Shown: positions 1-61,933 of the stretch, piece by piece
How positions within the stretch are numbered: position 1 is the stretch's first letter
How the letters are laid out: each line of letters starts with the position of its first letter
Source: Eledone cirrhosa
Lineage: Eukaryota
Length of the DNA stretch: 64,000 nt
Direction: 5' to 3'
Assembly: GCA_964016885.1 (NCBI GenBank)
Contig: OZ024741.1
Span: 76,756,001-76,820,000 of the forward strand
Notes under the pieces: generated by a model
What the model was told of the DNA's origin: nothing
Databases searched by the model: none
Seen by the model: only the letters and a program-made list of their open reading frames with translations
Translations under genes and position numbers: made by a program

Positions 1-1308
1 TCAATGGCCGAGCTAGAGAAGAAATTCCAAACATGGAAGCACGGCCTAGAGTCAAAAGGACTTAAAATTAACCTGGCTAAGACCAAAGTACTAGTTTTTA
101 GGAAAGAAAACAAGGCGCCGGTCCCTTCTGGGAAATGGTCGTGCTCGGTGTGTAGGAAAGGCGTAGGTAGAAACTCCGTTTTATGTCCTAAATGCAAAGT
201 ATGGGTGCATAAAAGATGTAGTGGGATCACAGTTAAGCTAACTAAGAACATAGATTTTACATGTGGCCGGTGCTCTGGTGCAAGTGCCCACAAAATACTA
301 GCTCTTTCAATTGCGCAGAGGGTTCTATAGAAATAGTGGACAGCTTCCGTTACCTGGGCGATAAAATCAGCAGTGGGGGAGGGTGCTCTGAAAGTACTGT
401 AGCTAGAGTCAGAACTGGTTGGAAAAAGTTCAGAGAGCTTATACCACTATTAGCTGCTAAAGGGTTCTCCCTAAAAATGAAAGGCAGGTTGTACGATGCC
501 TGCATACGAACAGCAATGCTGCATGGCAGTGAGACCTGGGCATTGTGTGCAGAGGATATACGCAGACTAGAGAGGAACGAAGCTTGCATGCTCCGCTGGA
601 TGTGTAACAGTAATATACGTAAACGGCAAAGCATAAACGAACTAAGGAAAAAATTAGAGATAAGAGGGATCAGATGTTGTTTACTCGAGAGAAGGCTACA
701 TTGGTATGGACACGTGATGCGCATGAAAGTCGATAGCTGTATAACAAAGTGCAGGGCAATAAAGATAGACGGTAGTCACGGAATAGGCAGACCTAGAAAA
801 ACCTGGGACGAGCTGATAAACTCCGACATCACACACTTACACCTCTCCAAGACAATGTCACTGGACCGAGACCTTTGGCGGTACTCAGTAACAGAGAAGA
901 CCCGCCTTACCTAAATATATAGTAAAACCTACTCCAGCCAGTAGGCATCTCTAACAAAATACACCCCGTCCCACCACCACCACCCCATCCACACCACCCC
1001 GTTCTATGTAAAGTTATGTTGGTGCCGCGCCATCGAGGCCGAAACAAATGAGATCGTGTAGGTGTCACGACAAAAAAACACACAGTCCACGCTGTAATGT
1101 GGCCGTGTAGGCAACACGGTAAAAACCTCCCAGACCCACACTGTAAATGTGGTTGGTGTTAGGAAGGGCATCCAACTGTAGAAAACCTGCCAGACAGTCC
1201 TATGCGAGCAAGACAATCACTCTTGCCTCAAGTGGGACTACCCCCGTCCAAACCCATGCAAGCGTGGAACACGGACGTTAAACGTTGATGATGATGATGA
1301 TGATGATA
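1..1308 (+). mobile_element. RTE-clade LINE, 3' portion (RT C-terminus, PHD-type finger, 3' UTR, (GAT)n tail)
   Basis: ORFs 4..330 and 261..914 (frameshifted) give GLKINLAKTK, a C4HC3 finger, FRYLG, MLHGSETW and RLHWYGHVMRM...GRPRKTW. The 3' UTR ends in (GAT)n at ~1287-1307. Near-identical to copies at 15.7-19.5, 28.7-30.5, 50.3-51.6 and 57.7-58.5 kb. Confidence 0.93.
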
Positions 1309-9695: not shown

Positions 9696-10043
9696 ATCAT
9701 CATCATCATCATCATTTCATTTTACGTCCGCTTTTTCCCTGCTTGCAAGGGTGGGACGGGAACTGATGCTGGCTTGATTTCTACAGCTGGATGCCCTTCC
9801 TAACACCAACCTCATTTTACAGTGAGTGCTGGGTGCTTTTTTGCCGTGGCACCTCCACGACCACTTTGCAGTGGAATGATATGGATCTCAGTCCCTATCA
9901 TCTCATTTCTACAGCTGAGTAAACTGGAGCAATGTGAAATAAAGTGTCTTGCTCAAGGAAACAACACATCACCCGGTCTGAGAATTGAACTCACAACCTT
10001 TCGATTGCAAAGCCAATGCTCTAACCACTAAGCCACGTGCCTC
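9696..10043 (-). mobile_element. tRNA-derived SINE with RTE-type 3' tail (family B)
   Basis: TGGCTTAGTGGTTAG (A box), GAGTTCAATTC (B box), TCCTTGAGCAAGACACTTTATTTCAC central domain, tail GGTTGGTGTTAGGAAGGGCATCCAGCTGTAGAAA...(ATG)n shared with the RTE 3' UTR. Confidence 0.88.
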
Positions 10044-10328: not shown

Positions 10329-10450
10329 TTATTCTTATATTGAATCTCCATCATAACTACACACTACGAATGTAGAAAGCTTTCTCCTGCTTACTCCTGT
10401 TTTTACCAAAACCATTTCTCCTGAACACAATATATATATATATATATATA

Positions 10451-11943
10451 CTTAGGGTAAACATTGATGCAATTCAATTCAAGCACTCAACGTACTTATT
10501 CCACATAGGAGTGACGGAGTAAATATCGTATAAGGAAAAGCGAAGTAGTTTTAGATGTTCAAGTCTTTTAATATGAGAAAGTTGACCATTAGCTACCGCA
10601 GATTTCAACGAATTATTATTAAAAGACTTGAACATCTGAAACTACTTCGCTTTTCCTTATTCGATATTTACTCCGTCACTCCTATGTGGAATAAGTACGT
10701 TGAGTGCTTGAATTGAATTGCATCAATGTTTACCCTAAGAATTTAGCTCCAATTAGTTGAGCGCTCTATGATGTAACCGATATGATGGAGAAGAGAGGAA
10801 CCAACCACAAGCTACACCCGGAAATTCCCTCTACCATGGGGATGGAAACCCCTGACACTGGACGGACATAATAATAACTTTCGGCAGGATAAATATGCGG
10901 AAACAAAAACAAAGATAAACCCCTATTTTCCTGCACCAAATCGCATTTGAACAGAAGCCCCCTCAATTCAATCTATACATGGACAAATTGACAATCATAT
11001 GGATCATTTTGCATATATGTACTCTATGTGTTTTTGCATTTATTCATTATTGGTTCTTTTCTTTTGTGTACTTTATATCTGTTTTTTTTGGTTTGTTCCA
11101 TGTGATGGGAATTATGACTATGTACCCAATTGACTACTGCCTTGCATACTGTAATTTACCCTCCGTTCTACTGTACGGTTCTATCGTTCAGTATGTGGAT
11201 AGTGTAACTGTGACATTAGTGCCCCTTTCAGAACTTCTTACTTAAACATCTCTCTGCATATTATTTACTCACTTCAATCTATATATTTTTTTTACCCACC
11301 CCAATCCGGATTCTCACTTTAAACATTTTTTAATTTCTAATTGTTAATTTTTTAATTTTTTAATTTTTTAATTTATAATTTTCTGATATTTGATTTAGGA
11401 TTTTTGATTTTAAATTTTTATTTTTATTTCCAACTCTCACTCATAACTTCCAATGTGAAACCATGATACCTAGAATTAAGTATATTTTCTCTTAGGGGTT
11501 GATGGTCAGTTGTACTGTCCATGCTTGGTGAGAGGTAGTATTGGGACCTGTAAATACTAACACTCTCCCATCCCCTCTGGCTTTCGGCTGACTGCCACAG
11601 ACGGGATGGGTAGCAGTAAACTATGGTACAGGCCTGAATGGGTCATTGTTTTTGGCTGAGAGGGGGAACTGACTAAGCGAATTTTGTTGAAATCTGCGGT
11701 AGCTAATGGTCAACTTCCTCTGGACCTGTGGGGGTGAATTGGTACTCACAGGGGAACGGATGAAGAACCCAAAAGCACACACTTCGTCCGTTCCCATGTC
11801 GATTCAATTTGGATTGCCTCGGAAACATAACCTTATTATGTAACAAGCTGTCTGACGATGTCGCGACACTGGTACACAGAACAGTGTGGACAGTGTCGCC
11901 ATTGAAATATATATCACAGAACATCTGAAACTACTTCGCTTTT

Positions 11944-11947
<4 letters not shown>
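10451..11947 (+). mobile_element. Penelope-like / retrozyme-like non-autonomous element (5' inverted repeat, terminal direct repeat, 3' hammerhead)
   Basis: Inverted repeat 10451-10572 / 10618-10739. GAACATCTGAAACTACTTCGCTTTTCCT at ~10630 is repeated at ~11919-11946. Hammerhead at 11848-11919. Both ends abut (TA)n. Confidence 0.72.
11848..11919 (+). ncRNA. Type-I hammerhead ribozyme motif (complete)
   Basis: CTGT-CTGACGA-T-GTCGCGACACTG...CAGTGTCGCCAT-T-GAAA-TATATA-TC-ACAG. Stem I CTGT/ACAG, stem II GCGACACTG/CAGTGTCGC, stem III ATATATAT; predicted cleavage after C11915. Confidence 0.82.
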
Positions 11948-12031
<84 letters not shown>

Positions 12032-12327: not shown

Positions 12328-13030
12328 GGGCAGTGGATTGGCAGTATCGGTAGAGGGTCGGATGCCATGCTTTGCAGCAAAGAGTTACGGCCCTTTATGG
12401 TCTGAGTTCAAATCTCGCCGAGGTTAACTTTGCCTTTCATCCTTACGGGGTCGATAAAATAAAGTACCAGTAATACACTGGGATAATTGCTGGCCTTGTG
12501 CCTAAAGAAGAAACAATTATTGTCTTTTTTGTTGTTAGAGCTATTTCTGATGTTGTCAATGACCACTGTAAGAGGTGATGCTGTTGTAGTTGTGATATTA
12601 ATAACTTTGAAGTCTATGACATCAATGTTGTTGTTGGTTCTAGACAAGAACACCAATAATCATGTTCTATTTCTTCCTGTTCGCATTTCTTCTTTTTCTT
12701 GTATTCCTTTCTGTAGGTGGATTGGCAGTATCGGTAGAGGGTCGGACGACATGCTTTGACGCATAGAGTTACGGCCCTTTCTAATCTGAGTTCAAATCCC
12801 GCCGAGGTTAACTTTGCCTTTCATCCTTACAGGGTCGATAAAATAAAGTACCAGTAATACACTGGGTAATTGCTGGCCTTGTGCCAAAAGTAGAAACAAT
12901 TATTTTTTCTTACATGACCCTTTATGTTCTGAGTTCAAATTCCGCCATGGTTAACTTTGCCTTTTATCCTTACGGGGTCAATAAAATAAAGCACCAGTAA
13001 TGCACTGGGGTAATTGTTGGCCTTGTGCCA
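12328..13030 (+). mobile_element. Three tandemly oriented family-A SINEs (~12328-12520, ~12715-12905, partial ~12915-13030)
   Basis: TGGCAGTATCGGTAG (A box), GAGTTCAAATC (B box), GCCTTTCATCCTTACGGGGTCGATAAAATAAAGTACCAG core. Confidence 0.85.
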
Positions 13031-13214
13031 ATGCAACTAAATGTAACTGAGCAGTTATCCTAAACAAATATAAAGAATATACAAAAACACAACAAAAAAA
13101 AGCAATTGTTGCATTCTACCAAAAACTAACAATTTTTGTCAAAACTTATAGAAGTAAAAATTAGTGTGGCTTTCTCAGTGGAGATAGATACAATTATTCT
13201 ATCTAATATTAACA

Positions 13215-14105
13215 TATGGCCAGTAATTTTGGGGTAAAATTGAATATATTGGCCCCAGGAACTAACTGATACTTTATTTTATTGACTCCAGAAGGATGAA
13301 AGGCAAAGTTGATGTCAGTGGGATTTGAACTCAATGTAGAAAGTTGTAACTAAATACTGCAAAGTATTTTGTCCAATGCTGTACCAATACTGCAAATCCA
13401 CTGTCCTAGCAGCAGCAGCAACAGCAACACCAACAGCAACAACAACAGCAGCAATGCTTTCTTTATTAACCACAAGGGTTGACACAAAGCATAACATTAA
13501 GGACAGCACAGGGCAGTACAAATGGGCATTTCTGCATGCAAAAACCAAAATAAAGGATGTAACAAAAAAAATGAAAGAAAGGAAAATTTCCCGGGGGGGG
13601 GGGGGGGGGTTCTGAGTGTCTGGAATAGGGAATGAAAACTAGGTTTGCACTTTAGAAAGAGTGAGAAGGAGTTGATTGTCCATATTTTCACCAATGATGT
13701 TCATTAGCATTAGGGCAAATTTTCAAGTTAAATAACAACAATGACTAAGATATCAAAGTAACAATAATAATAATTGTTTCTACTTTAGGCACAGGGCCAG
13801 CAATTACCCAGTGCATTACTGGTACTTTATTTTATCGACCCCCGTAAGGATGAAAGGCAAAGTCCACCTCGGCGGGAGTAACAATAATAATAATAATGAT
13901 TTCTACTATAGGCATATGACCAGCAATTTGGAGAGGAGGGAAAGTCGATTAAATCGACTCCAGTGTGTGACTGGTACTTTATTTATTGACCCCCGTAAGG
14001 ATAGAAGGAAAAGTTGATCTCAATTGGATTTAAACTCAGAATGTAAAGGGCTGTAACTAAATGCCGCAAAGCATTTTGCTCATCGCTCTAACAATTCTGC
14101 AAAAT
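13215..14105 (-). mobile_element. Cluster of minus-strand family-A SINE copies (~13215-13400, ~13760-13876, ~13900-14105)
   Basis: CTGGTACTTTATTTTATCGACCCCGTAAGGATGAAAGGCAAAG is the reverse complement of the family-A core. Confidence 0.75.
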
Positions 14106-32384: not shown

Positions 32385-35300
32385 AGAGAGAGAGATGAGA
32401 GAAAGTGTAATGGTGATTGAGAGTAAGTGGAAGAGAGATTGAGAATGTGTAACAGATTAGAGAAAGTGTATGAGAGATGAGAAAAAGTGTTACAGATATT
32501 GAGACAAAGTGTAAGAGGGATGAGAGAAGGAGGAAGAGAGATTGAGAGGAAGTGTAAGAGAGATTGAGAGGAAGTGTAAGGGAGATGAGAGACAGTGGAA
32601 GATAGATGAGAGAAAGTATAAGAAAGATGAGAGTAATTGTAAGAGAGATTGAGAAAAAGTAGAAAAGAGATTGAGAAAAAGTGTAAAAGAGAATGAGAGA
32701 AAGTAGAAGAGAGATTGAGAGAAAGTTTAAGAAAGATTAGATGAAGTGTAAGAGAGATGAGTGAAAGTATAAGAGAGATGAGAGAAAGTGTAAGAGAGAT
32801 GAGTGAAAGTATAAGAGAGATGAGAGAAAGTGTAAGAGAGATGAGTGAAAGTATAAGAGAGATGAGAGAAAGTGTAAGAGAGATGAGTGAAAGTATAAGA
32901 GAGATGAGAGAAAGTGTAAGAGAGATTGAGAGGAAGTGGATCAGAGATTGATAGAAAGCAGAAGAGAGATTGAAAGAAAGTATCAGAAGGGTGAGAGAAA
33001 GTGTCAGAGAGATTGAGAGAAAAGGTGTAAGAGAGATTGAAATAAAGTGTAAGAGAGGAAGTGGAAGAGTGATTGAGAGGAAGTGGAAGAGAGATTGAGA
33101 GGAAGTGGAAGAGAGATTGAGAGGAAGTGGAAGAGTGATTGAGAGGAAAGGGAAGAGTGATTGAGAGGAAGTGGAAGAGTGATTGAGAGAAAGTATGAGA
33201 GAGATTCAGAAAAAATGAAAGAGTGATTGAGAGGAAGTGGAAGAGAGATTGAGAGGAAGTGGAAGAGTGATTGAGAGGAAGTGGAAGAGTGATTGAGAGG
33301 AAGTGGAAGAGTGATTGAGAGGAAGTGGAAGAGTGATTGAGAGGAAGTGGAAGAGAGATTGAGAGGAAGTGGAAGAGTGATTGAGAGGAAGTGGAAGAGA
33401 GATTGAGAGGAAGTGGAAGAGTGATTGAGAGGAAGTGGAAGAGTGATTGAGCGGAAGTGGAAGAGAGATTGAGAGGAAGTGGAAGAGTGATTGAGAGGAA
33501 GTGGAAGAGAGATTGAGAGGAAGTGGAAGAGAGATTGAGAGGAAGTGGAAGAGTGATTGAGAGGAAATGGAAGAGTGATTGAGAGGAAGTGGAAGAGTGA
33601 TTGAGAGGAAGTGGAAGAGAGATTGAGAGGAAGTGGAAGAGTGATTGAGAGGAAGTGGAAGAGAGATTGAGAGGAAGTGGAAGAGAGATTGAGAGGAAGT
33701 GGAAGAGTGATTGAGAGGAAGTAGAAGAGAGATTGAGAGGAAGTGGAAGAGTGATTGAGAGGAAGTGGAAGAGAGATTGAGAGGAAGTGGAAGAGTGATT
33801 GAGAGGAAGTGGAAGAGTGATTGAGAGGAAGTGGAAGAGAGATTGAGAGGAAGTGGAAGAGTGATTGAGAGGAAGTGGAAGAGAGATTGAGAGGAAGTGG
33901 AAGAGTGATTGAGAGGAAGTGGAAGAGAGATTGAGAGGAAGTGGAAGAGAGATTGAGAGGAAGTGGAAGAGTGATTGAGAGGAAGTGGAAGAGTGGTTGA
34001 GAGGAAGTGGAAGAGTGATTGAGAGGAAGTGGAAGAGTGATTGAGAGGAAGTAGAAGAGAGATTGAGAGGAAGTGGAAGAGTGATTGAGAGGAAGTGGAA
34101 GAGAGATTGAGAGGAAGTGGAAGAGTGATTGAGAGGAAATGGAAGAGTGATTGAGAGGAAATGGAAGAGTGATTGAGAGGAAGTGGAAGAGTGATTGAGA
34201 GGAAGTGGAAGAGTGATTGAGATGAAGTAGAAGAGAGATTGAGAGGAAATGGAAGAGTGATTGAGATGAAGTGGAAGAGTGATTGAGAGAAAGTATGAGA
34301 GAGATTCAGAAAAAATGAAAGAGTGATTGAGAGGAAGTGGAAGAGAGATTGAGAGGAAGTGGAAGAGTGATTGAGAGGAAGTGGAAGAGTGATTGAGAGG
34401 AAGTGGAAGAGTGGTTGAGAGGAAGTGGAAGAGTGATTGAGAGGAAGTGGAAGAGTGATTGAGAGGAAGTAGAAGAGAGATTGAGAGGAAGTGGAAGAGT
34501 GATTGAGAGGAAGTGGAAGAGAGATTGAGAGGAAGTGGAAGAGTGATTGAGAGGAAGTGGAAGAGTGATTGAGAGGAAGTGGAAGAGAGATTGAGAGGAA
34601 GTGGAAGAGTGATTGAGAGGAAGTGGAAGAGAGATTGAGAGGAAGTGGAAGAGTGATTGAGAGGAAGTGGAAGAGAGATTGAGAGGAAGTGGAAGAGAGA
34701 TTGAGAGGAAGTGGAAGAGTGATTGAGAGGAAATGGAAGAGTGATTGAGAGGAAGTGGAAGAGTGATTGAGAGGAAGTGGAAGAGAGATTGAGAGGAAGT
34801 GGAAGAGTGATTGAGAGGAAGTGGAAGAGAGATTGAGAGGAAGTGGAAGAGAGATTGAGAGGAAGTGGAAGAGTGATTGAGAGGAAATGGAAGAGTGATT
34901 GAGAGGAAGTGGAAGAGTGATTGAGAGGAAGTGGAAGAGTGATTGAGATGAAGTGGAAGAGTGATTGAGAGAAAGTATGAGAGAGATTCAGAAAAAATGA
35001 AAGAGTGATTGAGAGGAAGTGGAAGAGAGATTGAGAGGAAGTGGAAGAGTGATTGAGAGGAAGTGGAAGAGTGATTGAGAGGAAGTGGAAGAGAGATTGA
35101 GAGGAAGTGGAAGAGTGATTGAGAGGAAGTGGAAGAGAGATTGAGAGGAAGTGGAAGAGTGATTGAGAGGAAGTGGAAGAGAGATTGAGAGGAAGTGGAA
35201 GAGAGATTGAGAGGAAGTGGAAGAGTGATTGAGAGGAAATGGAAGAGTGATTGAGAGGAAGTGGAAGAGTGATTGAGAGGAAGTGGAAGAGAGATTGAGA

Positions 35301-38300
35301 GGAAGTGGAAGAGTGATTGAGAGGAAGTGGAAGAGAGATTGAGAGGAAGTGGAAGAGAGATTGAGAGGAAGTGGAAGAGTGATTGAGAGGAAATGGAAGA
35401 GTGATTGAGAGGAAGTGGAAGAGTGATTGAGAGGAAGTGGAAGAGAGATTGAGAGGAAGTGGAAGAGTGATTGAGAGGAAGTGGAAGAGAGATTGAGAGG
35501 AAGTGGAAGAGAGATTGAGAGGAAGTGGAAGAGTGATTGAGAGGAAATGGAAGAGTGATTGAGATGAAGTGGAAGAGTGATTGAGAGGAAATGGAAGAGT
35601 GATTGAGATGAAGTGGAAGAGTGATTGAGAGAAAGTATGAGAGAGATTCAGAAAAAATGAAAGAGTGATTGAGAGGAAGTGGAAGAGTGATTGAGAGGAA
35701 GTGGAAGAGAGATTGAGAGGAAGTGGAAGAGTGATTGAGAGGAAGTGGAAGAGAGATTGAGAGGAAGTGGAAGAGTGATTGAGAGAAAGTGGAAGAATGA
35801 TTGAGATGAAGTGGAAGAGTGATTGAGATGAAGTGGAAGAGTGATTGAGAGAAAGTATGAGAGAGATTCAGAAAAAATGAAAGAGTGATTGAGAGGAAGT
35901 GGAAGAGAGATTGAGAGGAAGTGGAAGAGTGATTGAGAGGAAGTGGAAGAGTGATTGAGAGGAAGTGGAAGAGAGATTGAGAGGAAGTGGAAGAGAGATT
36001 GAGAGGAAGTGGAAGAGTGATTGAGAGGAAATGGAAGAGTGATTGAGAGGAAGTGGAAGAGTGATTGAGAGGAAGTGGAAGAGAGATGGAAAGAAAGTGT
36101 AAGAGATTGTGAAAAAGTGCAAGGGAGATTAGAGAAAGTTTAAGAGGGATTGAGTTACAGTAAGAGAGATGATAAAGAGTATAAGAACCTTTGAGAGAGA
36201 ATGTAAAAGAGATTGAAAAAAAGTGGAGGGAGATTGAGAGAAAGTAGAAGAGAGATTGAGTGAGTGTAAGAGAGATTGATAGAGAGTAGAAGAGAGATGA
36301 GAGAGGGTGTAAGAGAGATTGAGAGAAAGTGGAAGGAGATTGAGTGACAGTGTAAGAGAGATTGAGAGAGAGTAGAAGAGAGAGGGTGTAAGAGAGATTG
36401 AGAGAAAGTGGAAAAGACATTGGGAGAAAGTGCATGAGAGATGAGAGAAAGTATAAAAGTGTAAGAGAGACTGAGGGAAAATGGAAATGAGATTAGAGAA
36501 AGTATAAGAAAGATAAGAGGAAGTGTAAGAGAGATAGGAGGAATTGTAAGGGAGATTGAGAGAAAGTGGAAGAAAGATAGGAGGAATTGGAAGGGAGATT
36601 GAGAGGAAGTGGAAGAGAGATAGGAGGAATTGTAAGGGAGATTGAGAGAAAGTGGAAGAGAGATAGGAGGAATTGGAAGGGAGATTGAGAAGAAGTGGAA
36701 GAGAGATAGGAGGAATTGGAAGGGAGATTGAGAGAAAGTGGAAGAGAGATAGGAGGAATTGTAAGGGAGATTGAGAGAAAGTGGAAGAGAGATAGGAGGA
36801 ATTGGAAGGGAGATTGAGAGGAAGTGGAAGAGAGATAGGAGGAATTGGAAGGGAGATTGAGAGAAAGTGGAAGAGAGATAGGAGGAATTGGAAGGGAGAT
36901 TGAGAGGAAGTGGAAGAGAGATAGGAGGAATTGGAAGGGAGATTGAGAGAAAGTGGAAGAGAGATAGGAGGAATTGGAAGGGAGATTGAGAGAAAGTGGA
37001 AGAGAGATAGGAGGAATTGTAAGGGAGATTGAGAGGAAGTGGAAGAGAGATAGGAGGAATTGGAAGGGAGATTGAGAGGAAGTGGAAGAGAGATAGGAGG
37101 AATTGGAAGGGAGATTGAGAGAAAGTGGAAGAGAGATAGGAGGAATTGTAAGGGAGATTGAGAGGAAGTGGAAGAGAGATAGGAGGAATTGGCAGGGAGA
37201 TTGAGAGGAAGTGGAAGAGAGATAGGAGGAATTGGAAGGGAGATTGAGAGGAAGTGGAAGAGAGATAGGAGGAATTGGAAGGGAGATTGAGAGGAAGTGG
37301 AAGAGAGATAGGAGGAATTGGAAGGGAGATTGAGAGAAAGTGGAAGAGAGATAGGAGGAATTGTAAGGGAGATTGAGAGAAAGTGGAAGAGAGATAGGAG
37401 GAATTGGAAGGGAGATTGAGAGAAAGTGGAAGAGAGATAGGAGGAATTGGAAGGGAGATTGAGAGAAAGTGGAAGAGAGATAGGAGGAATTGGAAGGGAG
37501 ATTGAGAGAAAGTGGAAGAGAGATAGGAGGAATTGGAAGGGAGATTGAGAGGAAGTGGAAGAGAGATAGGAGGAATTGGAAGGGAGATTGAGAGAAAGTG
37601 GAAGAGAGATAGGAGGAATTGGAAGGGAGATTGAGAGAAAGTGGAAGAGAGATAGGAGGAATTGGAAGGGAGATTGAGAGAAAGTGGAAGAGAGATAGGA
37701 GGAATTGTAAGGGAGATTGAGAGGAAGTGGAAGAGAGATAGGAGGAATTGGAAGGGAGATTGAGAGGAAGTAGAAGAGAGATAGGAGGAATTGGAAGGGA
37801 GATTGAGATAAAGTGGAAGAGAGATAGGAGGAATTGGAAGGGAGATTGAGAGGAAGTGGAAGAGAGATAGGAGGAATTGGAAGGGAGATTGAGAGGAAGT
37901 GGAAGAGAGATAGGAGGAATTGGAAGGGAGATTGAGAGGAAGTGGAAGAGAGATAGGAGGAATTGGAAGGGAGATTGAGAGAAAGTGGAAGAGAGATAGG
38001 AGGAATTGGAAGGGAGATTGAGAGAAAGTGGAGGAGAGATAGGAGGAATTGTAAGGGAGATTGAGAGAAAGTGGAAGAGAGATAGGAGGAATTGGAAGGG
38101 AGATTGAGAGGAAGTGGAGGAGAGATAGGAGGAATTGTAAGGGAGATTGAGAGAAAGTGGAAGAGAGATAGGAGGAATTGGAAGGGAGATTGAGAGGAAG
38201 TGGAAGAGAGATAGGAGGAATTGGAAGGGAGATTGAGAGAAAGTGGAAGAGAGATAGGAGGAATTGGAAGGGAGATTGAGAGGAAGTGGAAGAGAGATAG

Positions 38301-41300
38301 GAGGAATTGGAAGGGAGATTGAGAGAAAGTGGAAGAGAGATAGGAGGAATTGTAAGGGAGATTGAGAGGAAGTGGAAGAGAGATAGGAGGAATTGTAAGG
38401 GAGATTGAGAGGAAGTGGAGGAGAGATAGGAGGAATTGTAAGGGAGATTGAGAGAAAGTGGAAGAGAGATAGGAGGAATTGTAAGGGAGATTGAGAAGAA
38501 GTGGAAGAGAGATAGGAGGAATTGTAAGGGAGATTGAGAGGAAGTGGAAGAGAGATAGGAGGAATTGGAAGGGAGATTGAGAGAAAGTGGAAGAGAGATA
38601 GGAGGAATTGGAAGGGAGATTGAGAGAAAGTGGAAGAGAGATAGGAGGAATTGGAAGGGAGATTGAGAGAAAGTGTAAGAGAGATAGGAGGAATTGGAAG
38701 GGAGTTTGAGAGAAAGTGGAAGATTGATGAGAGAAAGTGAAAGAGAGATTGAGTAACAGTGTAAGAGAGATGAGTGAAAGTGTAACAGAGATTGATAGAA
38801 ACTTGAAGAGTGATTGAGAAAGTGTAAGACAGATTGGGAGAAAGTGTAAGACAAATTGGGTGAAAATGTAAGACAGATTGGGAGAAAGTGTCAGACAAAT
38901 TAGGAGAAAGTGTAAGACAGATTGGGAGAAAGTGTAAGACATATCAGGAGAAAGTGTAAGACAAATTAGGAGAAAGTGTAAGACACATTGGGAGAAAGTG
39001 TAAGACAGATTGGGAGAAAGTGTAAGACAGATTGGGAGAAAGTGTAAGACAAATTGGGAGAACATGTAAGATAAATTGGGTGAAAATGTAAGATAAATTG
39101 GGAGACAGTGTAAGACAAATTGGGAGAAAATGTAAGACAAATTGGGAGAAAGTGTAAGACAGATTGGGAGAAAGTGTAAGACAAATTAGGAGAAAGTGTA
39201 AGACAGATTGGGAGAAAGTGTAAGACAGATTGGGAGAAAGTGTAAGACAGATTGGGAGAAAGTGTAAGACATATCAGGAGAAAGTATAAGAGAGATTGGG
39301 AGAAAGTGTAAGACATATCAGGAGAAAGTGTAAGACAGATTGGGAGAAAGTGTAAGACAGATTGGGAGAAAGTGTAAGACAGATTTGGAGAAAGTGTAAG
39401 ACATATCAGGAGAAAGTGTAAGACAGATTGGGAGAAAGTGTAAGACATATCAGGAGAAAGTGTAAGACAGATTGGGAGAAAGTGTAAGACAGATTGGGAG
39501 AAAGTGTAAGACATATCAGGAGAAAGTGTAAGACAGATTGGGAGAAAGTGGAAGAGAGATTGGGAGAAAGTGTAAGACCAATTGGGAGAAAGTGTAAGAC
39601 AGATCAGGAGAAAGTGTAAGACAGATTGGGAGAAAGTGGAAGAGAGATTGGGAGAAAGTGTAAGACCAATTGGGAGAAAGTGTAAGACAGATCAGGAGAA
39701 AGTGTAAGACAGATTGGAAGAAAGTGTAAGACAGATTGGGAGAAAGTGTAAGAGAGATTGGGAGAAAGTGTGAGACAGATTGGAAGAAAGTGTAAGACAG
39801 ATTGGGTGAAAGTGTAAGACAGATCAAGAGAAAATGTGAGACAGATTGGAAGAAAGTGTAAGACAGATTGGGAGAAAGTGTAAGAGAGATTGGGAGAAAG
39901 TGTGAGACAGATTGGAAGAAAGTGTAAGAGAGATTGGGAGAAAGTGTAAGAGAGATTGGGAGAAAGTGTGAGACAGATTGGAAGAAAGTGTAAGACAGAT
40001 TGGGTGAAAGTGTAAGACAGATCAAGAGAAAATGTGAGACAGATTGGAAGAAAGTGTAAGACAGATTGGGAGAAAGTGTAAGAGAGATTGGGAGAAAGTG
40101 TGAGACAGATCAGGAGAAAGTGTAAGAGAGATTGGGAGAAAGTGTAAGACAGATTGGGAGAAAGTGTAAGACATATCAGGAGAAAGTGTAAGACAGATTG
40201 GGAGAAAGTGTAAGACAGATTGGGAGAAAGTGTAAGACATATCAGGAGAAAGTGTAAGACAGATTGGGAGAAAGTGGAAGAGAGATTGGGAGAAAGTGTA
40301 AGACCAATTGGGAGAAAGTGTAAGACAGATCAGGAGAAAGTGTAAGACAGATTGGAAGAAAGTGTAAGACAGATTGGGAGAAAGTGTAAGAGAGATTGGG
40401 AGAAAGTGTGAGACAGATTGGAAGAAAGTGTAAGACAGATTGGGTGAAAGTGTAAGACAGATCAAGAGAAAATGTGAGACAGATTGGAAGAAAGTGTAAG
40501 ACAGATTGGGAGAAAGTGTAAGAGAGATTGGGAGAAAGTGTGAGACAGATTGGAAGAAAGTGTAAGACAGATTGGGTGAAAGTGTAAGACAGATCAAGAG
40601 AAAATGTGAGACAGATTGGAAGAAAGTGTAAGAGAGATTGGGAGAAAGTGTAAGAGAGATTGGGTGAAAGTGTAAGACAGATCAAGAGAAAATGTGAGAC
40701 AGATTGGAAGAAAGTGTAAGACAGATTGGGAGAAAGTGTAAGAGAGATTGGGAGAAAGTGTGAGACAGATTGGAAGAAAGTGTAAGAGAGATTGGGAGAA
40801 AGTGTAAGAGAGATTGGGAGAAAGTGTAAGAGAGATTGGGAGAAAGTGTGAGACAGATCAGGAGAAAGTGTAAGAGAGATTGGGAGAAAGTGTAAGACAG
40901 ATTGGAAGAAAGTGTAAGACAGTTTGGGAGAAAGTGTAAGAGAGATTGGGAGAAAGTGTAAGACAGATCAGGAGAAAGTGTAAGAGAGATTGGGAGAAAG
41001 TGTAAGAGAGATTGGGAGAAAGTGTAAGAGAGATTGGGAGAAAGTGTGAGACAGATCATGAGAAAGTGTAAGAGAGATTGGGAGAAAGTGTAAGACAGAT
41101 CAGGAGAAAGTGTAAGACAGATTGGGAGAAAGTGTAAGAGAGATTGGGAGAAAGTGTAAGAGAGATTGGGAGAAAGTGTGAGACAGATCAGGAGAAAGTG
41201 TAAGACAGATTGGAAGAAAGTGTAAGACAGATTGGGAGAAAGTGTAAGAGAGATTGGGAGAAAGTGTAAGATAGATCAGGAGAAAGTGTAAGAGAGATTG

Positions 41301-41315
41301 GGAGAAAGTGTAAGT
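32385..41315. repeat. Compound purine-rich satellite, ~9 kb (21/22-bp monomer family)
   Basis: 32750-32925: 42-bp dimer. 33055-36085: GAGAGGAAGTGGAAGAGWGATT (22 bp). 36520-38700: 43-bp dimer GAGAGRAAGTGGAAGAGAGATA+GGAGGAATTGKAAGGGAGATT. 38820-41315: GGGAGAAAGTGTAAGACAGATT (22 bp). Confidence 0.96.
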
Positions 41316-44284: not shown

Positions 44285-47200
44285 TAATTGTGGTGTAGTG
44301 GTTGTAGTGTAGTAGTTGTAATGTAGTGGTTGTAGTGTAGTGGTTGTAGTGTGGGTGGTTGTAATCTAGTGGTTGTAGTGTATTGGTTGTAGTGTACTGG
44401 TTGTAGTGTATTGGTTGTAGTGTAGTGGTTGTAGTGTAGTGGTTGTAGTGTAGTAGTTGTAATGTAGTGGTTGTAGTGTAGTTGTTGTAGTGTGGGTGGT
44501 TGTAATCTAGTGGTTGTAGTGTATTGGTTGTAGTGTACTGGTTGTAGTGTAGTGGTTGTAGTGTATTGGTTGTAGTGTAGTAGTTGTAATGTAGTGGTTG
44601 TAGTGTAGTGGTTGTAGTGTAGTGGTTGTAATGTAGTGGCTGTAGTGTACTGGTTGTAATGTAGTGGTTGTAGTGTAGTGGTTGTAGTGTAGTGGTTGTA
44701 ATGTAGTGGCTGTAGTGTACTGGTTGTAGTGTAGTGGTTGTAGTGTATTGGTTGTAGTGTAGTAGTTGTAATGTAGTGGTTGTAGTGTAGTGGTTGTAGT
44801 GTACTGGTTGTAGTGGTTGTAGTTTAGTGGTTGTAGTGTATTGGTTGTAGAGTAGTAGTTGTAATGTAGTGGTTGTAGTGTAGTGGTTGTAGTGTACTGG
44901 TTGTAGTGTAGTGGTTGTAGTGTACTGGTTGTAGTGTACTGGTTGTAGTGTAGTGGTTGTAGTGTAGTGGTTGTAGTGTAGTGGTTGTAGTGCAGGGGTT
45001 GTAGTGTAGTGGTTGTAGTGTAGTGGTTGTAGTGTAGTGGTTGTAGTGTAGTGGTTGTAGTGTAGTGGTTGTAGAGTAGTAGTTGTAATGTAGTGGTTGT
45101 AGTGTAGTGGTTGTAGTGCAGTGGTTGTAGTGTAGTGGTTGTAGTGTAGTGGTTGTAGTGTAGTGGTTGTAGTGTAGTGGTTGTAGTGTAGTGGTTGTAG
45201 TGTAGTAGTTGTAATGTAATGGTTGTAGTGTAGTGGTTGTAGTGTACTGGTTGTAGTGTAGTGGTTGTAGTGTAGTGGTTGTAGTGTAGTGGTTGTAGTG
45301 TAGTGGTTGTAGTGTAGTGGTTGTAGTGTACTGGTTGTAGTGTAGTGGTTGTAGTGCAGGGGTTGTAGTGTAGTGGTTGTAGTGTAGTGGTTGTAGTGTA
45401 GTGGTTGTAGTGTAGTAGTTGTAATGTAGTGGTTGTAGTGTAGTGGTTGTAGTGTAGTGGTTGTAGTGTAGTGGTTGTAGAGTAGTAGTTGTAATGTAGT
45501 GGTTGTAGAGTAGTGGTTGTAGTGTAGTAGTTGTAGTGTGGGTGGTTGTAGTGTAGTGATTGTAGTGTAGTGATTGTAGTGTAATGGTTGTAGTGTAGTG
45601 GTTGTAGTGTAGTGGTTGTAGTGTGGGTGGTTGTAGTGTAGTGGTTGTAGTGTAATGGTTGTAGTGTAGTGGTTGTAGTGTAGTGGTTGTAGTGTAGTGG
45701 TTGTAGTGTAGTGGTTGTAGTGTAGTGGTTGTAGTGTGGGTGGTTGTAGTGTAGTGGTTGTAGTGTAGTGGTTGTAGTGTAGTGGTTGTAGTGTAGTGGT
45801 TGTAGTGTAGTGGTTGTAGTGTAGTGGTTGTAGTGTAGTAGTTGTAGTGTAGTGGTTGTAGTGTAGTGGTTGTAGTGTAGTGGTTGTAGTGTAGTGGTTG
45901 TAGTGTAGTGGTTGTAGTGTAGTGGTTGTAGTGTGGGTGGTTGTAGTGTAGTGGTTGTAGTGTAGTGGTTGTAGTGTAGTGGTTGTAGTGTGGGTGGTTG
46001 TAGTGTAGTGGTTGTAGTGTAGTGGTTGTAGTGTAGTAGTTGTAGTGTAGTGGTTGTAGTGTAGTGGTTGTAGTGTGGGTGGTTGTAGTGTAGTGGTTGT
46101 AGTGTAGTGGTTGTAGTGTAGTGGTTGTAGTGAGTGTGGTTGTTGTGTAGTGGTTGTAGTGTAGTGGTTGTAGTGTGGGTGGTTGTAGTGTAGTGGTTGT
46201 AGTGTAGTGGTTGTAGTGTAGTAGTTGTAGTGTAGTGGTTGTAGTGTAGTGGTTGTAGTGTAGTGGTTGTAGTGTAGTGGTTGTAGTGTAGTGGTTGTAG
46301 TGTAGTGGTTGTAGTGTAGTAGTTGTAATGTAATGGTTGTAGTGTAGTGGTTGTAGTGTACTGGTTGTAGTGTAGTGGTTGTAGTGTAGTGGTTGTAGTG
46401 TAGTGGTTGTAGTGTACTGGTTGTAGTGTAGTGGTTGTAGTGCAGGGGTTGTAGTGTAGTGGTTGTAGTGTAGTGGTTGTAGTGTAGTAGTTGTAATGTA
46501 GTGGTTGTAGTGTAGTGGTTGTAGTGTAGTGGTTGTAGTGTAGTGGTTGTAGAGTAGTAGTTGTAATGTAGTGGTTGTAGAGTAGTGGTTGTAGTGTAGT
46601 AGTTGTAGTGTGGGTGGTTGTAGTGTAGTGATTGTAGTGTAATGGTTGTAGTGTAGTGGTTGTAATGTAGTGGTTGTAGTGTGGGTGGTTGTAGTGTAGT
46701 GGTTGTAGTGTAATGGTTGTAGTGTAGTGGTTGTAGTGTAGTGGTTGTAGTGTAGTGGTTGTAGTGTAGTGGTTGTAGTGTAGTGGTTGTAGTGTGGGTG
46801 GTTGTAGTGTAGTGGTTGTAGTGTAGTGGTTGTAGTGTAGTGGTTGTAGTGTAGTGGTTGTAGTGTAGTGGTTGTAGTGTAGTGGTTGTAGTGTAGTAGT
46901 TGTAGTGTAGTGGTTGTAGTGTAGTGGTTGTAGTGTAGTGGTTGTAGTGTAGTGGTTGTAGTGTAGTGGTTGTAGTGTAGTGGTTGTAGTGTAGTGGTTG
47001 TAGTGTGGGTGGTTGTAGTGTAGTGGTTGTAGTGTAGTGGTTGTAGTGTAGTAGTTGTAGTGTAGTGGTTGTAGTGTGGGTGGTTGTAGTGTAGTGGTTG
47101 TAGTGTAGTGGTTGTAGTGTAGTAGTTGTAGTGTAGTGGTTGTAGTGTAGTGGTTGTAGTGTGGGTGGTTGTAGTATAGTGGTTGTAGTGTAGTGGTTGT

Positions 47201-48660
47201 AGTGTAGTGGTTGTAGTGAGTGTGGTTGTTGTGTAGTGGTTGTAGTGTAGTGGTTGTAGTGTGGGTGGTTGTAGTGTAGTGGTTGTAGTGTAGTGGTTGT
47301 AGTGTAGTAGTTGTAGTGTAGTGGTTGTAGTGTAGTGGTTGTAGTGTAGTGGTTGTAGTGTAGTGGTTGTAGTGTAGTGGTTGTAGTGTAGTAGTTGTAA
47401 TGTAATGGTTGTAGTGTAGTGGTTGTAGTGTACTGGTTGTAGTGTAGTGGTTGTAGTGTAGTGGTTGTAGTGTAGTGGTTGTAGTGTACTGGTTGTAGTG
47501 TAGTGGTTGTAGTGCAGGGGTTGTAGTGTAGTGGTTGTAGTGTAGTGGTTGTAGTGTAGTAGTTGTAATGTAGTGGTTGTAGTGTAGTGGTTGTAGTGTA
47601 GTGGTTGTAGTGTAGTGGTTGTAGAGTAGTAGTTGTAATGTAGTAGTTGTAGAGTAGTGGTTGTAGTGTAGTAGTTGTAGTGTGGGTGGTTGTAGTGTAG
47701 TGATTGTAGTGTAATGGTTGTAGTGTAGTGGTTGTAATGTAGTGGTTGTAGTGTGGGTGGTTGTAGTGTAGTGGTTGTAGTGTAATGGTTGTAGTGTAGT
47801 GGTTGTAGTGTAGTGGTTGTAGTGTAGTGGTTGTAGTGTAGTGGTTGTAGTGTAGTGGTTGTAGTGTGGGTGGTTGTAGTGTAGTGGTTGTAGTGTAGTG
47901 GTTGTAGTGTAGTGGTTGTAGTGTAGTGGTTGTAGTGTAGTGGTTGTAGTGTAGTGGTTGTAGTGTAGTAGTTGTAGTGTAGTGGTTGTAGTGTAGTGGT
48001 TGTAGTGTAGTGGTTGTAGTGTAGTGGTTGTAGTGTAGTGGTTGTAGTGTAGTGGTTGTAGTGTGGGTGGTTGTAGTGTAGTGGTTGTAGTGTAGTGGTT
48101 GTAGTGTAGTAGTTGTAGTGTAGTGGTTGTAGTGTAGTGGTTGTAGTGTGGGTGGTTGTAGTGTAGTGGTTGTAGTGTAGTGGTTGTAGTGTAGTGGTTG
48201 TAGTGTGGGTGGTTGTAGTGTAGTGGTTGTAGTGTAGTGGTTGTAGTGTGGGTGGTTGTAGTGTAGTGGTTGTGGTGTAGTGGTTGTAGTGTAGTAGTTG
48301 TAGTGTAGTGGTTGTAGTGTAGTGGTTGTAGTGTAGTGGTTGTAGTGTAGTGGTTGTAGTGTAGTGGTTGTAGTGTAGTGGTTGTAGTGTAGTGGTTGTA
48401 GTGTAGTAGTTGTAGTGTAGTGGTTGTAGTGTAGTAGTTGTAGTGTAGTGGTTGTAGTGTAGTGGTTGTAGTGTAGTGGTTGTAGTGTAGTGGTTGTAGT
48501 GTAGTGGTTGTAGTGTAGTGGTTGTAGTGTAGTGGTTGTAGTGTAGTGGTTGTAGTGTAGTAGTTGTAGTGTAGTGGTTGTAGTGTAGTAGTTGTAGTGT
48601 AGTGGTTGTAGTGTAGTGGTTGTAGTGTAGTGGTTGTAGTGTAGTAGTTGTAGTGTAGCA
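44285..48660. repeat. 14-bp satellite (GTAGTGTAGTGGTT)n, ~4.4 kb
   Basis: Direct read. Variants include GTAGTGTGGGTGGTT and GTAGTGTACTGGTT. Source of the spurious TTTTTLQPLHYNHY ORFs. Confidence 0.97.
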
Positions 48661-61625: not shown

Positions 61626-61933
61626 GGAGGCACATGGCTTAGTGGTTAGAGCATTGGCCTTGCAATCGAAAGGTTGTGAGTTCAATTCTCAGACTGTTCC
61701 AGTTTACTCAGCTGTAGAAATGAGATGATAGGGACTGAGGTCCATATCATTCCACTGCAAAATGGTCGTGGAGGTGCCACGGCTAAAAAAGCACCCAGCA
61801 CTCACTGTAAATGAGGTTGGTGTTAGAAAGAGCATCCAGCTGTAGAAATCAAGCCAGAATCAGTTCCCGTCCCACCCTTGCAAGCAAGGAAAAAGCGGAC
61901 GTAAAATGGAATGATGAAATGATGATGAAATGA
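61626..61933 (+). mobile_element. Family-B SINE with internal deletion
   Basis: GGAGGCACATGGCTTAGTGGTTAGAGC...RTE-type tail, (ATG)n. Confidence 0.85.

What the first reader, a model, noticed from the sequence alone, without database searches (positions are those of the whole stretch)
10451..11947. 1.5-kb element with full pseudo-LTR logic: inverted 5' copy, ~1.3-kb unit, hammerhead cleaving just before the terminal direct repeat
Predicted self-cleavage after C11915 is followed within a few nt by GAACATCTGAAACTACTTCGCTTTTCCT, the same sequence found near the start of the unit at ~10630. The repeat boundary thus nearly coincides with the ribozyme site, as expected if a self-cleaved (possibly circular) RNA is the template. 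The first ~120 bp are duplicated in inverted form upstream. No intact ORF; 10830-10990 may be a decayed GIY-YIG C-terminus (..SHLNRSPLNSIY..), which is weak inference.
Basis: partly seen in the sequence, partly recalled or inferred. Interest (0 to 1): 0.75.

Follow-up and report, generated by a model that had tools for sequence, protein, structure and literature searches.

The report
Protein-less Hydra-Penelope passenger with ribozyme
This is one of many hundreds of scattered copies of a 1.3-kb non-coding jumping element with a hammerhead-ribozyme motif; it carries the same twin start signals as protein-coding Penelope-type retrotransposons of the same genome and likely borrows their enzyme, which likely copies one RNA from both cut DNA strands at once.

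Summary
The locus is one copy of a dispersed non-coding family (1321-nt unit; 1731 exact copies of its hammerhead core) that inserts into (TA)n. Copies end at two fixed points, A and B, 77 nt apart, each 6-7 nt before a small bulged hairpin; autonomous Hydra-clade Penelope-like elements here carry the same ribozyme-hairpin-hairpin-ATG layout. Two-armed insertions join one A with one B end in 30 of 31 unbiased cases, and both arms share the same variant haplotype: likely one RNA primed from both target strands. Two first-reader points fail. The repeat starts beside the cleavage site only because this copy lost 20 nt, and copying runs through that site in 60 of 64 full-length arms. No GIY-YIG remnant was detected. 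Cleavage and circles are untested. Verdict: a non-autonomous Hydra-dependent element, like a large retrozyme. Twin hairpins and A+B pairing were not found in print, but this scan noted them before on other DNA.

The parts
10430..10450 (.). left (TA)n target tract
   Evidence: sequence
10451..10573 (-). inverted arm, unit 133 down to 11; its outer end is start point B
   Evidence: end B
10575..10612 (-). second piece of the inverted arm, unit about 1109-1073, reached by a jump that skips the hammerhead
   Evidence: (I6)
10613..11946 (+). main arm: one full 1321-nt unit from unit position 6/7, then the terminal repeat; 96% identical to the family majority sequence
10662..10662 (+). internal copy of start point A (unit 56)
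10670..10705 (+). bulged hairpin A (ACUC-CGU...ACG-UU-GAGU), 7 nt 3' of start point A; structure predicted
10739..10739 (+). internal copy of start point B (unit 133)
10746..10762 (+). bulged hairpin B (GCUC-C...G-UU-GAGC), 6-7 nt 3' of start point B; structure predicted
10782..10784 (+). ATG at the place where Hydra elements start their ORF; no coding homology follows
11848..11919 (+). type I hammerhead motif with minimal stem III; predicted cut after 11915; activity untested
11918..11919 (+). private 20-nt deletion (unit 4-23) that shortens stem I to 4 bp and moves the repeat next to the cut site
11919..11946 (+). terminal direct repeat (unit 24-51); right end is an A-type end, 5 nt short of the usual point
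11947..12027 (.). right (TA)n(GA)n target tract

Best explanation
This is a copy of a dispersed, protein-less 1321-nt element with a hammerhead motif that carries the terminal signals of Hydra-clade Penelope-like elements and is likely mobilised in trans by their reverse transcriptase-endonuclease. Shown: constant non-coding unit, head-to-tail partial repeats, head-to-head arms, (TA)n targets, two fixed ends each 6-7 nt before a conserved hairpin motif, one A plus one B end per two-armed insertion, shared haplotype of the two arms, and read-through of the ribozyme site. Inferred: a Hydra protein (probably a dimer) binds the two hairpins on one RNA, nicks both strands of a (TA)n tract and starts one cDNA at A and one at B; both run 5'-ward through the uncut or re-ligated ribozyme site, stop or jump at variable points and are joined head to head. 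The H2 Hydra group, whose head is collinear with this element's, is the most likely helper.
For: Family: 29 other loci 86-93% identical over 1.0-1.37 kb, 1731 exact core copies, control 0, older subfamilies at 70-75% with the same unit size. Ends: last shared base 7 nt before hairpin A in 51 of 73 A ends, 6-7 nt before hairpin B in 56 of 65 B ends; the commonest start of the TA run lies 5-8 nt before the hairpin at all 8 sites of 4 families. Pairing: 30 A+B, 1 B+B, 0 A+A of 31 (p=3e-8); 47 of 48, 15 of 15, 23 of 25, 8 of 8 in this family, a sister family and two Hydra families. Arms agree at 9.55 of 10 polymorphic sites vs 5.81 shuffled, 33 pairs. Helper: four Hydra families with ribozyme-A-B-ATG heads; hairpin B upstream of 54 of 61 Hydra N-termini; collinear 70-88% blocks between this head and H2 heads; no such motif at Neptune-type ends among 50 GIY-YIG loci. 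Two internal RT starts, both-strand extension and dispensable ribozyme cleavage were shown in vitro for a Poseidon element (PMC11167929).
Against: No protein or long DNA homology to any Hydra family, so the helper is assigned from short signals only; most blocks have weak E-values (best 8e-4). Hairpins were collected with a pattern that fixes three of four outer pairs; the bulged form is the minimum-energy fold in 12 of 22, and hairpin A of this family folds otherwise in a longer context; families are related, so the covariation reflects few independent events. Shared haplotypes of arms could also come from one dominant source locus at a time or from gene conversion. In vitro, the Poseidon start sites did not differ by strand and the strict pairing was not examined. 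22 of 62 insertions are one-armed. No expression, cleavage or binding data.
Confidence: 0.8

Rival explanations
1. Retrozyme cycle in the strict sense: the hammerhead cuts dimeric transcripts to monomers, a ligase closes a 1.3-kb circle, and the circle is the template (rolling circle). This differs from the best explanation only in the template and could be true alongside it.
For: Arms pass the cut site once or twice without a seam; tandem copies share haplotypes, 9.45 of 10 vs 6.23 shuffled; subfamily-level variation in the ribozyme falls on the free N7 position and stem II only; stem I covaries across families; the unit folds as a circle at z about -3 against 12 shuffles; metazoan retrozymes make circles (PMC7229834, passages).
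Against: The one long array (10 ribozyme copies, 8 units compared) grew by local duplication: p2/p4 differ at 2 sites, p3/p5 at 13, other pairs of the plus arm at 69-92, so it is no rolling-circle product. Few arms exceed 1.5 units. Stem III has 2 bp, so monomer cutting is likely weak (inference). Uncut RNA was the main substrate for PAc in vitro.
Confidence: 0.3
2. One reading: a self-cleaved linear RNA is the template and its 5' end sets the repeat boundary.
For: In this copy the main arm stops at unit 6/7, the inverted arm jumps at unit 11 and the deletion covers unit 4-23: three breaks beside the cut site. Indels of 5 nt or more are somewhat frequent at unit -10..29 (7.8 per 100 copies).
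Against: 60 of 64 arms run through; 4 stop, about 3 expected. 5 of 98 non-SINE 5' junctions fall in unit 1-30. The region is an ATT repeat and SINE target, which explains the indels.
Confidence: 0.1
3. The copies are truncated ends or deletion remnants of a coding Penelope element and do not spread as a unit of their own.
For: Other hammerhead stubs in this genome are ends of coding Hydra elements; genome searches score only the top candidates, so a rare coding form could be missed.
Against: The unit is closed: head, body and ribozyme recur at 1321-nt spacing in independent loci, with age-graded subfamilies and no RT or EN signal in six frames of young or old units.
Confidence: 0.07
4. The inverted arm arises by fold-back self-priming (on an antisense template) and not by a second target-primed start.
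For: Proposed for Penelope inverted ends in PMC3846280 (passages); arms share haplotypes.
Against: A fold-back copy would repeat the same outer end (A+A or B+B); 93 of 96 two-ended insertions in four families are A+B, and either end can be on the long arm.
Confidence: 0.1

Closest known systems
Hydra-clade EN+ Penelope-like elements, incl. Hydra-1_Obim (Craig et al. 2021, PMC8557442; passages, section 11, supplement parts 52-53 and table rows)
   Same: (TA)n targets, type I hammerhead, partial tandem plus inverted arm, tail at one end. By eye the published consensi show the same hairpin after the ribozyme (Hydra-2_Amil, Hydra-2_Ajap) and twice before the ATG (Hydra-1_Ajap).
   Different: No ORF; tail of 77 nt against 30-40 nt described for PLEs in general; the main text has no mention of hairpins and I saw no non-autonomous Hydra family in the parts read.
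Metazoan non-LTR retrozymes (Cervera and de la Pena 2020, PMC7229834, passages; Li et al. 2026, 10.64898/2026.07.22.740005, parts 1-3 of 5)
   Same: Non-coding unit with one type I hammerhead, proposed to depend on PLEs.
   Different: Unit 1321 nt (170-400 nt and 51-972 bp in those papers); mostly dispersed two-armed insertions, not tandem arrays; circles not shown here.
Poseidon element PAc of Anolis (Frangieh et al. 2024, PMC11167929; parts 1-2 of 4)
   Same: Two internal RT start sites downstream of the ribozyme that define the tail; both target strands extended; AT-rich targets; predicted dimer.
   Different: PAc is autonomous and starts in one AC-rich stem loop inside the ORF; here each start has its own copy of a bulged hairpin before the ATG position, and genomic insertions use one start per strand.
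Putative non-autonomous Chlamys elements such as MRC1 (PMC8557442, passage)
   Same: Protein-less PLE dependants with pLTRs and head-to-tail copies, similar to the helper at the 3' end.
   Different: Other clade and kingdom; Chlamys lack canonical hammerheads; similarity to the helper here is reduced to short signals.

Membership tests
Penelope-like element insertion unit (non-autonomous) | partial tandem (pLTR) with adjacent inverted 5'-truncated copy | tested here: met
Penelope-like element insertion unit (non-autonomous) | tail at one end only (two fixed 3' ends) | tested here: met
   ends at unit 56 and 132/133; 30 of 31 A+B
Penelope-like element insertion unit (non-autonomous) | type I hammerhead motif in the pLTR | tested here: met
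   core, stems I-III; sequence and structure only
Autonomous PLE | ORF with RT and GIY-YIG endonuclease | tested here: not met
   controls pass
Hydra clade (dependant of) | insertion into (TA)n | tested here: met
   74 of 74 B ends in the non-TC class; A ends in TA or TC-then-TA runs
Hydra clade (dependant of) | head signals shared with Hydra elements and not with other clades | tested here: met
   short motifs only
Hydra clade (helper H1/H2 proteins) | RWK-type, DKT, CxCX5C, CxxC and CxH motifs; C-terminal EN; no CCHH | tested here: met
   H1 reads RWR, DKT, CNCRNRVDC, CDLC, CKH in a 713-codon frame against the list; read by eye, no tree built
Hydra clade (dependant of) | mobilisation by a Hydra protein | not testable with these tools
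   needs an in vitro or cell assay
Non-LTR retrozyme | non-coding unit with a hammerhead in each repeat | tested here: met
Non-LTR retrozyme | short unit (under 1 kb) in tandem arrays | tested here: not met
   1321 nt; 1 long array among 62 insertions, made by local duplication
Non-LTR retrozyme | self-cleavage and circular RNA in vivo | not testable with these tools
   no RNA data were available

The most novel reading that the evidence does not exclude
Hydra-clade Penelope proteins read a portable RNA cassette of about 170 nt, two bulged hairpins in tandem, conserved from corals and sea cucumbers to this genome; one subunit of a dimer sits on each hairpin and starts a cDNA 6-7 nt upstream from one target strand. 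The cassette alone licenses any RNA, here a 1.3-kb (and a 2.4-kb sister) non-coding passenger, possibly as a circle, for insertion into (TA)n. This would explain the Penelope tail and inverted ends and define a class of SINE-like dependants of PLEs.
Probability: 0.5. Interest if true: 0.75.

Novelty: new variant of a known kind. Interest (0 to 1): 0.5.

Why it matters
How Penelope-like elements make their tail and inverted ends is open. A protein-less family keeps only what the enzyme needs, so it points to the cis-signals (two hairpins, spacing 6-7 nt, AU-rich linker) and, with intact Hydra ORFs in the same genome, gives a matched RNA-protein pair for a direct test. It also stretches retrozyme-like elements to 1.3-2.4 kb and shows from genomic copies that the ribozyme cut does not set the element's ends.

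Tried and rejected
GIY-YIG remnant: profiles built from Hydra, Neptune-type and a third PLE group of this genome found nothing in six frames of the window, the majority sequence, 4 old units or the sister unit (best E 0.009 on the minus strand of an old unit with the N-terminal profile); EN controls passed; Pfam found nothing in 5 window peptides. Neptune-type families as helper: their ends lack the motif. Telomerase-like TC addition at end A: 15 of 91 A ends vs 0 of 74 B ends carry (TC)n, but 63 of 149 unrelated TA tracts preceded by TC do too: ordinary microsatellite drift. Rolling-circle origin of the long array: rejected. Pile-up of 5' junctions at the cut site: none. Rfam: no hammerhead hit at gathering or E<=10. 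Expression: no RNA holder listed; the contigs laid are of unrecorded kind and say nothing on RNA. The cross-family ribozyme alignment was mis-registered and not used; two of 11 rows (F2, S2) were not parsed by the script. Distances were noisy and were redone. Search by sequence in earlier findings gave nothing. Pfam PF26215 is not held.

Full report
Observation. The direct repeat (10630-10657 = 11919-11946), the 129-nt inverted repeat and the hammerhead motif are in the sequence. The inverted arm has a further 38-nt piece from unit about 1073-1109. The element lies between (TA)10 and (TA)19(GA)22. The genome is a 3.0-Gb animal assembly; earlier notes of this scan point to an octopus, which I did not test.

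Family. A search with the element gave 2526 candidates, 40 scored; 29 other loci match at 86-93% over 1.0-1.37 kb. A 20-mer of the ribozyme core occurs 1731 times, control 0. The unit, numbered from the predicted cut, is 1321 nt; the 30 copies are 92-98% identical to their majority sequence, and older subfamilies at 70-75% keep the size. Head, body and ribozyme recur head to tail in independent loci, so the non-coding unit itself is what spreads. Profiles of PLE domains from this genome find no coding remnant (controls).

What is private to this copy. It lacks unit 4-23, 20 nt; none of the other 51 ribozyme rows shows this junction, and loose ends of public contigs supply the missing stretch. 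That deletion is why the repeat seems to start at the cut.

Ends. All outer 3' ends run into (TA)n at two points: A, unit 56, and B, unit 132/133. In 62 insertions picked only for the ribozyme core (70 loci, 8 overlapping ones merged), 31 have two canonical ends: 30 A+B, 1 B+B, no A+A; 22 are one-armed and 9 have a non-canonical end (p=3e-8). The window copy is B on the left and a slightly short A on the right. A second count over all loci gave A+B in 47 of 48 (this family, overlapping the first set), 15 of 15 (a 2.4-kb non-coding sister family), 23 of 25 and 8 of 8 (two coding Hydra families). The two arms of 33 insertions agree at 9.55 of 10 polymorphic sites against 5.81 when shuffled, yet differ at 3.4 other sites on average, so they are not freshly homogenised.

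The ribozyme. In 117 copies chosen by an anchor outside the core, the core is fixed except N7 (C/T, 50%); the other nine common polymorphisms lie in stem II. Neighbouring sequence is also little variable, so this is modest evidence. Stem I changes sequence but keeps pairing across families (9 of 11 rows parsed). Stem III is 2 bp with a palindromic loop, the type that is reported to need dimers in axolotl retrozymes (PMC7229834, passages; the structural parallel is my inference). Of 76 internal heads, 64 arms come round to the cut site; 60 pass and 4 stop within 15 nt, about 3 expected. The template is therefore continuous across the site. The 10-ribozyme array on C1 grew by local duplication and is no evidence of rolling circles.

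The helper. A motif R-CUC-C...G-UU-GAG-Y follows both ends, 7 nt after A in 51 of 73 ends and 6-7 nt after B in 56 of 65. The same pair lies between ribozyme and ATG of four coding families; hairpin B precedes 54 of 61 N-terminal hits, and strict A and B forms are each found in 18 of 27 H2 heads. These proteins have the Hydra marks listed in PMC8557442 section 11: RWR, DKT, CxCX5C, CxxC, CxH (20 of 20 loci fetched for a 713-codon frame have it). Among 50 GIY-YIG loci, mostly Neptune-type, the motif appeared only in a Hydra head, an inserted sister element and one unplaced hit. The element's head aligns in four collinear blocks of 70-88% with H2 heads, down to the ATG position (best E 8e-4). 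In 14 A hairpins the second inner pair is G-C in 7 and A-U in 7; inner pairs 2-3 are paired in 24 of 28 cells against 15.2 shuffled. Caveats: the pattern fixes most outer pairs, the families are related, the bulged fold is the minimum in 12 of 22, and hairpin A of this family folds otherwise in a longer context. By eye the published Hydra consensi carry the hairpin too: after the ribozyme in Hydra-2_Amil and Hydra-2_Ajap, twice before the ATG in Hydra-1_Ajap, degenerate in Hydra-1_Obim and Hydra-1_Crog; Hydra-1_Amil ends too early to tell.

Mechanism. Shown: anatomy, ends, pairing, shared haplotypes, read-through, shared signals. Inferred: a Hydra RT-endonuclease, likely a dimer, binds both hairpins of one RNA, nicks both strands of (TA)n and starts one cDNA at each point; the cDNAs stop or jump and are joined head to head. 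This fits the in vitro behaviour of PAc (two internal starts, both strands extended, cleavage dispensable; PMC11167929). Whether the RNA is an uncut transcript or a ligated circle is open (about 30% circle). In this copy three breaks cluster beside the cut site, so a cleaved template in this one event cannot be excluded.

What is known. Non-autonomous PLE derivatives with hammerheads are described (PMC7229834, passages; 10.64898/2026.07.22.740005, parts 1-3 of 5, supplements not seen), as are the tail and inverted pLTR (PMC8557442, passages, section 11, supplement rows and parts 52-53; PMC3846280, passages). I did not find the twin hairpins, a strict A+B rule or a non-coding Hydra dependant in seven searches (listings only for papers not named here) or in the main text of PMC8557442; the library lacks most subscription papers and Repbase/Dfam were not searched. 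This scan had already noted the hairpins and two-site priming on other DNA; I reached them before those look-ups and tested them here. What this locus adds is a closed, protein-less 1.3-kb unit that uses them, the haplotype test and the read-through count.

Verdict: real; a new variant of a known kind; interest 0.5.

Noticed in passing
unit position 5/6 in family copies (e.g. L004, L007, L014, L081); same SINE at window 12333-12520, 12717-12911, 12860-13055, 13254-13407: A 190-nt SINE has inserted right behind the ribozyme cut, always in the same orientation with its own variable target duplication, in 39 of 197 ribozyme copies (42 flagged, 3 dropped by hand) against 4 of 105 other ATTATTATT sites (p=1e-4).
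   Followed up: partly
L241:2016-4427 (G000:C1:56785015-56787427): Sister non-coding family with a 2.4-kb unit, related ribozyme, same twin hairpins 144 nt apart; a pattern for its tail has 1551 matches, partly from related families.
   Followed up: partly
L251:5168-8830; L282-L301: Very abundant Hydra family H1 with many intact 713-codon frames; its ribozyme-like motif reads CAGAAGA instead of CUGANGA, and one subfamily has a C(UUCG)G loop in hairpin B.
   Followed up: partly
window 57238 (-) and 61614 (-): Two further hammerhead stubs of related families.
   Followed up: no
unit 1157-1205 (window about 11752-11800): A 14-bp hairpin; 5' junctions cluster at unit 1188-1203 just 3' of it, which may be an RT pause.
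   Followed up: no
L062, L069, L070, L073, L061: Several Neptune-type families also end in (TA)n but show no hammerhead in their 3' regions by my pattern.
   Followed up: no
window 33053-41314 and 44288-48658: Long strand-skewed satellites (22-nt and 14-nt units).
   Followed up: no
window 9974-10037 (-) and 61629-61700 (+): tRNA-like heads, probably SINEs.
   Followed up: no
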